This document shows positions 60,001 to 63,000 of a stretch of 64,000 nt of DNA, one piece after another. The stretch is from Phallusia mammillata (Eukaryota). Each line of letters begins with the position of its first letter. The stretch's first letter is position 1. The DNA lies in NCBI GenBank assembly GCA_965637545.1, contig OZ281494.1, positions 11,718,001 to 11,782,000 of the forward strand, in the 5' to 3' direction. Position numbers: made by a program.

Positions 60001-63000
60001 GTTTAATGTTTTTTATTAATCGCCTCGCAGTATTTTGGCAGTTGATTACACTTCATTGTGTTGTATCAAGTATAATAGAAACGTCACCCTACCCAATCGT
60101 ATGATTTAACATAGCAAATACACCACCGTGGTTTGCATCAATTAAAATGACCCCGTAACCACCTCAAAGAGTAATGTTCGCCTTTAGCAAATATAGTTCT
60201 TGTTACTTTACTTCAGCGGTTTAGCGTTTCACAAATATAGTCGACGACGTTACTACAAAGCATTGAGCAAGGTCACGTATGTTACACAAGAAAATTTTAC
60301 CAGAACACACACTTAACCTATTCCAGTATTGCACCAACGAAAACACACATACATATGCTTCTATTATACGTTCAAGCGTTCTACTTTACATGTCCTTCGT
60401 TATCGCTGTCCTTTTTAAACAAATATATTACATCATAGCATTAGCTTTTTAAGGCATTACAATGTAACGTAGCTCAACGTAGCTCTAAAGTCTAAACAAA
60501 ACAGTTACAAAAAACTTTGTACAATTATAAACGTTTTATATGCAGGTAAACGCCTTATTAAATCCTCACATTTTTAGCTTTAATTACCATATTTAGATGC
60601 ACAAGATGTTTAATATATGTAATAAGTTGAAATCCTTGCATATGCTTCAAAAGAACATGACGTTTAATTACTTTTAAAAGTAGGCCCAAAGTGATTTGCG
60701 CAGAAGAATGTATTTTGTTTTCCAAACAGAGAAATCTTGATTTTAAAATACAGTACAAATATCAACAGTATTAAGTCACATTTACTAAATGAGAAGATGT
60801 CTTTGAACGGATGTACGCTATATGATATGAGATGTACAGCACAGCAATACACGTTCGGGTGTTAGTGACCAATATACGATGTCAAATGGATGAGATACAC
60901 ACAAGTGATTATTGTGGGACAAATAACAGTGACCTTACCTGCGGGTGCGTCCGCCATCATTAGCTGGCCTAAAGCTTTTAGCCAATATCAAGCAATGTTA
61001 TTATTGAGCAATCATAAGCAACATAAATGCACAAATGCCAGGCACATGAAAAAAATTGTTGGTTATAGTTAGACGATTTTACCTAATCCTGTTTCGTTAA
61101 AAAACTAGAGTTTGCTTTAATCAGTGAGAGAATAACATTATTGGTGATATTTTCATTACGACACGAAATCGTTGCAATCGGCCATACTTTACATAACTAA
61201 TTATAACGTAATAGTCAAAGTTAGGCAGTTTCATGAACTATTGTGAGGCGTGTTTCTTTGAACGTTCTGTTATTATCATTCAGGTGCATGTCATGCCAGT
61301 GAAGAAACTTCGTTCCAGGCCAGCATAGCAGTGTAGGCAAGATGCAATTATATGCTAATCGAAGCATCCATAATAATCATTCTCTTATATGCATCACAGG
61401 CTGTGCATTGATATAATCGCATCTAAACACACTGTTGATGTGACAAACTACTCACGTTCTTCGCAATATTGTCCGGCGAATGATGTCCCGGAACAATCGC
61501 AAGAGGTGTCCTGGTCGCTGACGTAACACACACCGTTGTTCTGACACGGGTTTCTAAGGTGGCAAAACAAGCAAGTTACCTATATACTAGGTTTCAACTA
61601 CAAATAAACATCACAAAAAACATTGCTAAATGCTCATAGCGACATACTACATATCTCTCTCAACGAATCCGGTTAATCGAAATCTGTCTGATAGCAGATT
61701 TCGTTTTATGCATACAGATCCCAAATTGAGGAGCATTATTAGCCGAAAAACGTTTCGATTAATTGCATAGCATTTTTCGCGTAAACGTAAGAAAACTCTA
61801 CATACAGGTGTTACCCTGATGAAGGTGTTTCGTATGGGACATCGAAACGTTGGCATATTAGAACAAAAAAAAGGCCGGAAGAGCTAAAAATTTTGTTGAT
61901 ACAGGTGTTGTTATTGACCAGGATGGGGCCTAAAGCCAGTGTATCCACCACCAGGCCTTTTATATTGGTACAAATATTACCTGAATTCGGTACAAGCATC
62001 GTCCAATGTCTGTTCCAGCACATCATACTTGCGCACGGCTGATACGTATTTTCCGTTGATAGAAATTTGCCGGACATAGCCACTGAATCGGTTTTCAAAA
62101 AACACAGAAGGCAGGGCAAGCTGACTAATCTCGTAACCTCCAGTCAAGCCACCAAAAAATGTTGGAGTAGTTGATATTAGGTCCTGCCCCTCGCCTCGAA
62201 CAGACTGGGATGTTACGTTCCCGTCAACTGTAAACCGTACAGAGGGAAAAGACTTCTCGACTTGCACTGTGTGCCATCTATTGTCGTTCATGTTGTTGCC
62301 TAAAGTTAGAACCACAGTTCTTGGTAGGCCAAACTTAAATCGAAGTCGCAGGGAACGCTGGTACAAAGTAATTGCGATAAAGCTTGAATCACCGTCGTCC
62401 AAGTACATCAGAAATGCATCGCCCAGTTTAGTGCGAAATTGAAAAGACAAAGCCATGTTTCCGTCTATCGGCGTTTTCCAAGTTGGAAATTCAGCGTATT
62501 GTCCAGTGTTGCCGGAAAAATGGAACGTGGTCATTCGGACCAAGTCGCCGGCTATCAAAGAAGAGTTACCCGAAGGCGTAAAGGTTTGACGCTGGGGTCC
62601 AGTGACGGATAAGGAGAGTTCGGAGTCCAGGTCCCACGCACCGAATGATGACGTCACTATGGTCGAGAGCAGCACCAAAATCAGGCAGTCGAATCGATAC
62701 CATATAGTTAAACTTCTTGGTGTCATTGTGTTGTGCTGGTCTATGATCCGAATAATTTCGTAATATCAGCAAACTAGTTGTAGCTGTGTCCAGAAATGCC
62801 TTACAAAATTTCAGTCTACAAAATCATGGCTAACTGCGCTGTGAAAAAAAATCAAAGGCAATAGATTTTAGGAAAAACCTAACACACTGTAAACGAGCAA
62901 CATAAATCGTTATAACTTCGTTACGAATGCCTTTTACCACTACCTACACTTGTGCAAATTAGGAGAAAACACCAAATGTGCATCGGTTTGTGTTCGGCCG

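What the first reader, a model, noticed from the sequence alone, without database searches (positions are those of the whole stretch)
60939..60968. SS1 microexon retaining the LMM-x-D motif
Seen: a 30-nt phase 1-1 exon after EGF1 encoding RQLMMADAPA, with a GTAAGG donor. Known (recalled): vertebrate NRXN1 SS1 includes LAHLMMGDQG. Inference: an orthologous microexon. Further SS1 micro-exons may be hidden in the 3.4-kb downstream intron.
Basis: partly seen in the sequence, partly recalled or inferred. Interest (0 to 1): 0.65.

Follow-up and report, generated by a model that had tools for sequence, protein, structure and literature searches.

The report
Sea-squirt neurexin SS1 small exon
A small coding exon in a sea-squirt neurexin gene matches one that vertebrates splice in and out of the same spot in their neurexins, so this piece of the synaptic "splice code" predates vertebrates; the exon itself is already in a public protein record.

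Summary
The window is not human. It holds the whole alpha-neurexin gene of the ascidian Phallusia mammillata, on the minus strand (CDS 62726..23560).

The exon is real. The 5' edge differs. The only public protein of this gene (P0001, CAB3264446.1) reads CEE-PLGQLMMADAPA-AYNQ, so it uses an AAG acceptor 6 nt upstream. That makes the exon 36 nt (60974..60939), not 30 nt.

Orthology with the vertebrate SS1 exon is well supported:
- HMMER aligns the peptide to the LAHLMMGDQ insert of PDB 6cw1_A.
- SS1-minus neurexin-1alpha chains show a 12-residue gap exactly over it.
- Fish nrxn3a has FAHMM(M)ADQ and Styela has VMMMSDQ at the same junction.
- In RefSeq models of Ciona, Styela and fish this exon is present in some isoforms and absent in others.

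Skipping in Phallusia itself is not shown. Regulation is inferred only: a weak acceptor, four UGC upstream and a YCAY cluster downstream. No convincing further micro-exon was found in either flanking intron.

Verdict: a new member of a known kind, of modest interest.

The parts
61981..62726 (-). First coding exon: signal peptide and LNS1. It ends in phase 2 at CAG|GTAATA.
   Evidence: 100% identical to P0001 residues 1-248. Laminin_G_2 E 4.7e-22. Junction resolved.
61456..61553 (-). EGF1 (EGF-A) exon, 98 nt. It ends ...QYCEE plus C (phase 1), donor AAC|GTGAGT.
   Evidence: Sequence. Maps to P0001 residues 250-281. Junction resolved.
60975..61034 (-). Last 60 nt of the upstream intron. It has four UGC (three of them as TTGCTY), a poor pyrimidine tract (11 of 22) and a TTGAT branch-point-like site.
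   Evidence: This is the highest TGC count of the 25 acceptors of this gene. Only 1.9% of 60-nt windows in the gene have 4 or more.
60939..60974 (-). SS1-type exon as used in the public protein. It is 36 nt, phase 1-1, and encodes (P)LGQLMMADAPA(A). Acceptor CTAAAAG|CT, donor CAG|GTAAGG.
   Evidence: P0001 sequence. Exact mapping. This is the only junction solution that reproduces P0001. HMMER alignment to 6cw1_A, and a 12-residue gap in 3r05_A and 3qcw_A.
60939..60968 (-). It would read (R)QLMMADAPA(A). A possible tandem-acceptor variant.
   Evidence: The sequence shows it. No transcript or protein record supports it. Leave-one-out acceptor score is -1.15, against 0.07 for the 36-nt acceptor.
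60839..60938 (-). First 100 nt of the downstream intron. It holds a YCAY cluster (6 sites).
   Evidence: The background mean is 1.45 per 100 nt, and 1.4% of windows in the gene reach 6. No GCATG in the first 300 nt.
57531..60938 (-). Intron of 3408 nt between the SS1 exon and the first LNS2 exon.
   Evidence: Junction. The scan found 100 open phase 1-1 AG...GT candidates. The best combined score was 11.6, against 15.2 for the real exon.
57390..57530 (-). First LNS2 exon, 141 nt, phase 1 to 1. Acceptor TCTCGCAG|CG. It reads (A)YNQAVATFTGEEWFKYEL... If the SS1 exon is skipped the junction codon is C+CG = P.
   Evidence: Aligned to the start of LNS2 in neurexin-1alpha structures.

Best explanation
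This is a real coding exon of the single alpha-neurexin gene of the ascidian Phallusia mammillata. It is 36 nt long and frame-preserving (phase 1-1). It puts 12 residues (PLGQLMMADAPA) into the linker between EGF-A and LNS2.

It is the tunicate counterpart of the vertebrate SS1 exon that encodes LAHLMMGDQ in neurexin-1 and FAHMM(M)ADQ in fish neurexin-3a. That exon therefore existed in the common ancestor of tunicates and vertebrates.

Shown here:
- the exon, its splice sites and its phase;
- its presence in an independent public protein record;
- the alignment to the vertebrate insert;
- in/out use of the equivalent exon in annotated isoforms of Ciona, Styela and fish.

Inferred:
- In Phallusia it is also a cassette. 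Skipping would give CEE-P-YNQ and keep the frame.
- Inclusion is helped in neurons by factors that rescue weak acceptors, either SRRM3/4-like through the UGC repeats upstream or Nova-like through the YCAY cluster downstream.
- The conserved hydrophobic-acidic core [LM]MM-x-D is a contact motif rather than a mere spacer.
For: Identity of the gene:
- The LNS1 exon is 100% identical to P0001 (Neurexin-3-like, Phallusia mammillata, CAB3264446.1). That search gave 2 hits with E<=0.001 among 1977 candidates.
- P0001 maps exon by exon to 62726..23560.
- P0001 differs from the window at internal residues 484 and 1109 at least. It is therefore not a model computed on this very sequence.

The exon:
- P0001 contains PLGQLMMADAPA.
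- 25 of 29 junctions were resolved with GT-AG. They include 61456>60974 and 60939>57530, both in phase 1.

Orthology:
- phmmer aligns P0001 281-294 to the insert of PDB 6cw1_A (Neurexin-1), with matches at E, L, LMM and D. The chains 3r05_A and 3qcw_A have a 12-residue gap exactly there.
- Of 179 fish nrxn3a proteins, 161 carry [FL]AHMM(M)ADQ at the junction, 155 with AKGK after it and 6 without. 3 lack all inserts, 1 has only another insert, and 14 had no anchor.
- Styela: 11 of 14 isoforms with anchors carry AKIYDVMMMSDQ and 3 lack it. Ciona: 10 of 14 carry FFEIYQNDR at the same place, 3 lack it and 1 is aberrant. The junction residues change as expected for phase 1.

Chance:
- LMM.D occurs once in the six-frame translation of the window. 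Shuffles give 0.13.

Regulation (suggestive only):
- The acceptor has the second-lowest leave-one-out score of 25 (0.07). The donor is strong (10.6).
- There are 4 UGC in the 60 nt upstream, the maximum of 25 acceptors.
- There are 6 YCAY in the first 100 nt downstream.
- A UGC near the 3' splice site is described as characteristic of SRRM3/4-dependent micro-exons (bioRxiv 10.1101/2024.09.17.613571, passages).
Against: - No Phallusia transcript lacking the exon was seen. The P0001 cluster has one member, so alternative splicing here is unproven.
- How P0001 was derived (cDNA, RNA-seq assembly or gene model) is not known from my calls.
- Ciona, the closest sampled relative (48% identity overall), has no MM-x-D in its equivalent exon. 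The motif is therefore dispensable in one lineage.
- The human neurexin-2 SS1 insert printed in PMC13728146 has PAHLTLNSE instead.
- Vertebrate exon boundaries and phases could not be read from DNA. They are inferred from fish isoform differences only.
- The aligned peptide is too short for an E-value of its own.
- At 36 nt (or 30 nt) the exon is above the 3-27 nt definition of a micro-exon given in the abstract of bioRxiv 10.64898/2026.05.02.722430 (search listing).
- The nearest UGC lies upstream of the likeliest branch site, not between it and the AG.
- The motif enrichments have p of about 0.01-0.03 each, from about five motif tests, uncorrected.
Confidence: 0.85

Rival explanations
1. The exon is real and orthologous, but in Phallusia it is constitutive. 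It would be a small linker exon that is always included, with no SS1-type regulation.
For: The only known product contains it, and no skipped form is in the protein collection. In this gene AAG acceptors are also used at two other exons (51455 and 33882), so a weak-looking acceptor need not mean regulation. A 2014 paper found no skipping of the AS4 exon in sea-squirt ESTs (PMC3933685, passages).
Against: The equivalent exon is absent from 3 of 14 Ciona and 3 of 14 Styela annotated isoforms. Skipping keeps the frame. The acceptor is the second weakest of 25 and the flanks carry UGC and YCAY enrichments.
Confidence: 0.25
2. Both tandem acceptors are used. A 30-nt form (R-QLMMADAPA), would coexist with the 36-nt form (PLG-QLMMADAPA).
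For: TTTAG|G lies 6 nt downstream of AAAAG|C, and both keep phase 1. In Ciona the upstream SS1 micro-exon shows two forms differing by one residue (QVQKNK and LQKNK), as expected from acceptors 3 nt apart.
Against: No record shows the 30-nt form. Its acceptor scores lower (-1.15 against 0.07). The two extra codons supply the L and G that align with the vertebrate L-A-H-LMM, which argues that the 36-nt reading is the conserved one.
Confidence: 0.3
3. The likeness to the vertebrate SS1 exon is convergence or chance. The exon would be a lineage-specific linker exon at a junction that tolerates inserts in many animals.
For: Scallops have a 36-nt phase-1 cassette at the same junction with an unrelated sequence (SAQRNPRRNLN). 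It is present in 4 of 5 Argopecten and 6 of 8 Mizuhopecten isoforms. Ciona's exon lacks the motif. Only 5 to 8 residues match.
Against: The same rare motif, [LM]MM[AGS]D, sits at the same junction in Phallusia, Styela, fish nrxn3a and neurexin-1. It has no other occurrence in six frames of the 64 kb, and none appeared in 30 shuffles. The phase is the same in all three tunicates.
Confidence: 0.05

Closest known systems
Vertebrate alpha-neurexin SS1 exon encoding LAHLMMGDQ (neurexin-1) or [FL]AHMM(M)ADQ (fish neurexin-3a)
   Same: It lies between EGF-A and LNS2 and preserves the frame. The L-x-x-[LM]-M-M-x-D core is aligned by HMMER. It is present or absent among annotated fish isoforms.
   Different: The Phallusia exon is 36 nt, while the vertebrate one is inferred to be about 30 nt. 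The tail is ADAPA rather than GDQ/ADQ. Vertebrates have further SS1 exons on both sides: EANSIPG-type upstream and AKGK-type downstream in fish. Skipping is unproven in Phallusia. Vertebrate exon edges were not read from DNA.
SS1 cassette exons of Styela clava and Ciona intestinalis neurexin (RefSeq isoform models)
   Same: The exon lies immediately before the first LNS2 exon, which starts (A/T/P)[YI][DN][EQ]A[VA]ATF. It is phase 1-1. It is in or out among isoforms. Styela keeps VMMMSDQ.
   Different: The inferred lengths are 39 nt (Styela) and 30 nt (Ciona). Ciona has lost MM-x-D. Both species have a second micro-exon upstream (RSE; QVQKNK) that P0001 lacks and that I could not find in the 481-nt Phallusia intron.
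Scallop neurexin 12-residue cassette at the EGF1-LNS2 junction
   Same: It has the same junction, the same inferred length (36 nt) and the same phase 1. It is in or out within a species.
   Different: There is no sequence likeness (basic SAQRNPRRNLN), so homology of the exon itself is open.
SRRM3/4 (eMIC)-dependent neural micro-exons
   Same: The exon is small, symmetric and frame-preserving. It has a weak acceptor, a strong donor and UGC repeats upstream.
   Different: It is longer than 27 nt. The UGC is not clearly placed between the branch site and the AG. The regulator and tissue pattern are untested.

Membership tests
alpha-neurexin | Ectodomain of LNS (laminin G) and EGF domains in the neurexin order, alignable over its length to neurexin-1alpha | tested here: met
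   phmmer of P0001 against 3r05_A gives E 1.5e-247 over query residues 69-1264. Laminin_G_2 matches three window exons. Precomputed Pfam domains are LamG, EGF and the syndecan-type tail.
alpha-neurexin | Single-pass membrane protein with the conserved cytoplasmic end ...KEYYV | tested here: met
   P0001 ends ...DKDKEYYV. Its last exon maps to 24258..23560. That this ending defines neurexins is recalled.
neurexin SS1 cassette exon | Lies between the EGF-A exon and the first LNS2 exon | tested here: met
   The exon order is 61553..61456, then 60974..60939, then 57530..57390. The gap falls at this point in SS1-minus PDB chains.
neurexin SS1 cassette exon | Symmetric phase, so that inclusion and skipping both keep the frame | tested here: met
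   It is phase 1 on both sides. The skipped junction codon would be C+CG = P.
neurexin SS1 cassette exon | Sequence likeness to the vertebrate LAH[LM]MM[GA]DQ exon | tested here: met
   HMMER alignment to 6cw1_A. Fish nrxn3a: 161 of 179. Styela VMMMSDQ. The peptide is too short for an E-value of its own.
neurexin SS1 cassette exon | Transcripts both with and without the exon in the same species | not testable with these tools
   There is only one Phallusia record, and no RNA-seq or EST data are at hand. It is met in the Ciona and Styela RefSeq models.
neurexin SS1 cassette exon | Same exon boundaries and phase in vertebrate genomic DNA | not testable with these tools
   No vertebrate or other animal genome collection is available here. 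Only the 3' edge after ...ADQ is inferred, from fish isoforms with and without AKGK.
SRRM3/4-dependent neural micro-exon | Length 3-27 nt | tested here: not met
   The exon is 36 nt (or 30 nt). The 3-27 nt definition is from the abstract of bioRxiv 10.64898/2026.05.02.722430 (search listing).
SRRM3/4-dependent neural micro-exon | UGC motif near the 3' splice site, between branch point and AG | tested here: inconclusive
   There are four UGC in the 60 nt upstream, the nearest about 20 nt before the AG and before the TTGAT branch-like site. The feature is described in bioRxiv 10.1101/2024.09.17.613571 (passages).
SRRM3/4-dependent neural micro-exon | Neuron-enriched inclusion that depends on the factor | not testable with these tools
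   No expression data are available.

The most novel reading that the evidence does not exclude
The neurexin splice code is not a vertebrate invention. The tunicate-vertebrate ancestor would already have had cassette exons at SS1, SS2, SS3 and SS4. A phase-1 cassette at the SS1 junction may go back to the bilaterian ancestor, as the scallop case suggests. Within SS1, the [LM]MM-x-D core would be a conserved contact motif for a partner or an intramolecular docking site that is still unknown. It would be switched by an ancestral neural splicing programme of SRRM or Nova type.
Probability: 0.3. Interest if true: 0.6.

Novelty: new member of a known kind. Interest (0 to 1): 0.4.

Why it matters
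SS1 is among the less studied of the six neurexin splice sites: one review calls SS4 'particularly well-studied' (PMC12652946, passage). In one recent study, removing the SS1 insert did not markedly change binding of the Vstm2 ligands (PMC13728146, passage).

[quoted passage not shown] The data here argue otherwise for the closest relatives of vertebrates. The core SS1 exon and its motif are shared. Annotated Ciona and Styela isoforms also vary at the SS1, SS2, SS3 and SS4 positions.

This 39-kb single-copy tunicate gene carries the same cassette exons. It gives a tractable system to ask what SS1 does.

My searches of the paper library found no paper on SS1 in tunicates.

Tried and rejected
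Further SS1 micro-exons:
- I scanned both flanking introns for open phase 1-1 AG...GT candidates of 6-63 nt, scored with position weight matrices (PWMs) built from this gene's own 25 sites.
- There were 4 candidates in the 481-nt upstream intron and 100 in the 3408-nt downstream intron.
- The best scores were 7.1 and 11.6, against 15.2 for the real exon, and all the best candidates had poor donors. There is no convincing candidate, but the test is crude and cannot exclude one.

Other motifs and features:
- The Rbfox motif GCATG does not occur in the 300 nt downstream.
- Rfam found no RNA family in 57000..62800 on either strand.

Protein searches:
- The third search returned only cypriniform nrxn3a among the 120 proteins listed out of 8000 that passed. 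Neurexin-1 and neurexin-2 and non-teleost vertebrates were therefore not sampled that way. Neurexin-1 came from PDB chains and a printed construct.
- My first motif scan used a pattern that missed Styela's VMMMSDQ. It was found on reading the junctions.

Papers:
- Treutlein et al. 2014 is not held.
- Two searches found nothing.
- Supplementary Fig. S6 and Table S6 of PMC3933685, on neurexin exon conservation in the sea squirt, could not be read and may bear on this.

Not run:
- Structure prediction and complex prediction, because a linker in a shallow alignment was unlikely to give a usable model and no binding claim is made.
- Genome-contig scans, because that collection holds only bacteria and archaea.

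Sequences and steps left out:
- The unnamed hits P0010, P0055 and P0056 and the unnamed Logan/ENA cluster members were not used.
The window's exons were searched singly. Whole-protein comparisons used the public record P0001.

Amphioxus, ambulacrarians, lamprey and other tunicates stayed unchecked.

Full report
**What the window is.** It has no N and is not human. The long minus-strand frame at 62726..61981 is 100% identical over 248 residues to P0001. P0001 is the 1654-residue 'Neurexin-3-like' protein of the ascidian Phallusia mammillata (UniRef A0A6F9DN92, CAB3264446.1). That search gave 2 hits with E<=0.001 among 1977 candidates. Exact peptide mapping places all of P0001 on the minus strand from 62726 to 23560. 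Of 29 exon junctions, 25 could be resolved with GT-AG sites that reproduce the protein. The other four fail because P0001 and the window differ by a few residues. Internal differences at residues 484 and 1109 show that P0001 was not computed from this very sequence. How it was derived is not known from my calls. Pfam finds laminin G domains in three of the four frames tested. P0001 aligns to neurexin-1alpha ectodomain structures with E 1.5e-247.

**The observation.** TTTAG precedes it and GTAAGG follows it. The EGF1 exon (61553..61456) ends ...QYCEE plus one C. The first LNS2 exon starts at 57530, so the downstream intron is 3408 nt. Phase 1 on both sides is correct.

The public protein, however, reads QYCEEPLGQLMMADAPAAYNQAVATF. 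The only junction that gives this uses the acceptor CTAAAAG|CT, 6 nt upstream. The motif LMM.D occurs once in the six-frame translation of the whole window, at this exon, against a mean of 0.13 in 30 shuffles. Rfam finds nothing in 57000..62800 on either strand.

It stands between EGF1 and LNS2 in an NRXN1alpha construct printed in the Methods of PMC12707391 (passage). It also stands at the start of PDB chain 6cw1_A. phmmer aligns P0001 from residue 281 to that chain, matching E, L, LMM and D. The SS1-minus chains 3r05_A and 3qcw_A show a gap of exactly 12 residues over the exon's product.

I tabulated 179 named fish neurexin-3a proteins:
- 155 read ...E EANSIPG [FL]AHMM(M)ADQ AKGK AREENVATF, with small substitutions;
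- 6 lack AKGK;
- 3 lack the whole insert;
- 1 has only an EVNNNMP-type insert;
- 14 had no anchor.

Fish therefore have at least three SS1 units, and the middle one carries the motif. The human neurexin-2 insert printed in PMC13728146 has PAHLTLNSE at that place (passage), so the MM-x-D core is not universal.

**Tunicate relatives.** RefSeq isoform sets were read from two 90% clusters: Ciona with 16 members and 15 listed, Styela with 22 members and 15 listed. The junctions were tabulated.
- Ciona, 14 isoforms with anchors: 8 carry both inserts (QVQKNK or LQKNK, then FFEIYQNDR), 2 carry only FFEIYQNDR, 2 carry only the first, 1 carries neither, and 1 old model is aberrant.
- Styela, 14 isoforms with anchors: 2 carry RSE plus AKIYDVMMMSDQ, 9 carry only the latter, 1 carries only RSE, and 2 carry neither.
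- The residue at each junction changes as expected if every boundary is in phase 1, as in Phallusia.
- The inferred exon lengths are 30 nt (Ciona), 39 nt (Styela) and 36 nt (Phallusia).

Styela's VMMMSDQ matches fish HMMMADQ closely. Ciona has lost the core. The same rare motif at the same junction and in the same phase, in two tunicates and two vertebrate paralogues, makes common descent far more likely than chance.

**Outgroups.** Scallop isoforms differ by a 12-residue insert, (R)SAQRNPRRNLN(Q), at the same junction. It is again consistent with a 36-nt phase-1 cassette. It is present in 4 of 5 Argopecten and 6 of 8 Mizuhopecten isoforms and absent from the single Pecten model. It has no likeness to the chordate exon. 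The Lepidoptera, caddisfly and mealybug sets (21 proteins) show no variation there. The beetle and nematode sets (19 proteins) gave no anchor. Amphioxus, ambulacrarians and lamprey were not sampled.

**How it probably works.** Shown: including the exon adds 12 residues to the EGF-A to LNS2 linker. Skipping it would join C to CG and read CEE-P-YNQ, in frame.

Inferred: the exon is regulated. Scored with matrices built from this gene's own sites, leaving the site itself out, the acceptor scores 0.07. That is the second lowest of 25. The donor scores 10.6. The 60 nt upstream hold four UGC, three of them as TTGCTY. This is the highest count of the 25 acceptors, and only 1.9% of windows in the gene reach four. 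The first 100 nt downstream hold six YCAY, which 1.4% of windows reach.

A UGC near the 3' splice site is described as characteristic of SRRM3/4-dependent micro-exons (bioRxiv 10.1101/2024.09.17.613571, passages). Nova control of small neuronal exons of Agrin in chordates is reported in PMC12445529 (abstract in the search listing only). That YCAY is the Nova site is recalled.

These are leads, not tests. About five motifs were tried without correction. The exon is longer than the 3-27 nt definition. The nearest UGC lies before the likeliest branch site, not after it.

That the conserved hydrophobic-acidic core is a contact motif is my inference from its conservation in an otherwise variable linker.

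**Further micro-exons.** A scan of both flanking introns gave 4 and 100 open phase 1-1 candidates. None reaches the real exon's score, and the best have poor donors. In Ciona and Styela the second SS1 micro-exon lies upstream of this exon. In fish there is one on each side.

**Novelty.** The exon is already contained in a public protein record, so the exon itself is not new. What my searches did not find in print is its orthology with the vertebrate SS1 exon, or any account of SS1 in tunicates. A 2025 review says extensive neurexin splicing appears exclusive to vertebrates (PMC12665717, passage). Annotated Ciona and Styela isoforms vary at the SS1, SS2, SS3 and SS4 positions. These are computational RefSeq models, so this is a lead.

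**What was left out.** I built and searched no joined coding sequence of my own. Window exons were searched singly, and whole-protein work used the public records. Unnamed hits were not used. The search of protein representatives was not run, because its unnamed hits could be human.

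Noticed in passing
window 53676..53705 (-): A 30-nt phase 0-0 exon encoding KGDAVGPSST lies inside LNS2, exactly where the neurexin-1alpha PDB chains have a 10-residue gap. 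I recall this as the SS2 position. Ciona and Styela isoforms vary at the same place: a 9-residue block missing in 1 of 11, and a 42-residue block missing in 2 of 13.
   Followed up: partly
window 41610..41639 (-): A 30-nt phase 1-1 exon encodes (D)CSQPNCTAP(R). It aligns to DCIRINCNSS in 3r05_A and to a gap in 3qcw_A. I recall this as the SS3 position. The two cysteines are conserved. 1 of 11 Ciona and 1 of 13 Styela isoforms lack the equivalent block.
   Followed up: partly
window 27771..27857 (-): An 87-nt phase 1-1 exon encodes a 29-residue block (DARSRFALASPSIAPSARPAVDSWLQGK...) in LNS6. It corresponds to the 29-residue block missing from 1 of 11 Ciona and 1 of 13 Styela isoforms. This looks like the SS4/AS4 exon that PMC3933685 reported as present in the sea squirt without skipping in ESTs.
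   Followed up: partly
window 32386..32403 (-): An 18-nt phase 1-1 micro-exon, (H)VSTLP, lies between the third EGF exon and LNS6. A UGC sits 13 nt before its AG. The neurexin-1alpha chain 3poy_A has a 6-residue gap there. 1 of 11 Ciona and 2 of 13 Styela isoforms lack the equivalent 6 residues. Its vertebrate counterpart, if any, was not identified.
   Followed up: partly
window 23560..62726 (-): The whole alpha-neurexin coding region spans only about 39 kb. The human genes are given as 106 to 1618 kb in the review PMC12665717.
   Followed up: no
window 51456..51475 and 60975..60997 (-): Two of the three AAG acceptors in this gene are preceded by the same TTGCTTGAT string: the SS1 exon, and the exon after the SS2-type exon. 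This may be a shared branch-site or enhancer element, or a coincidence.
   Followed up: no
Ciona cluster alignment, columns 852-869: An 18-residue block (LPVNPVFGNKEDQHALVG) is present in only 1 of 11 Ciona isoforms and has no counterpart in P0001. It is either a rare cassette or a model artefact.
   Followed up: no
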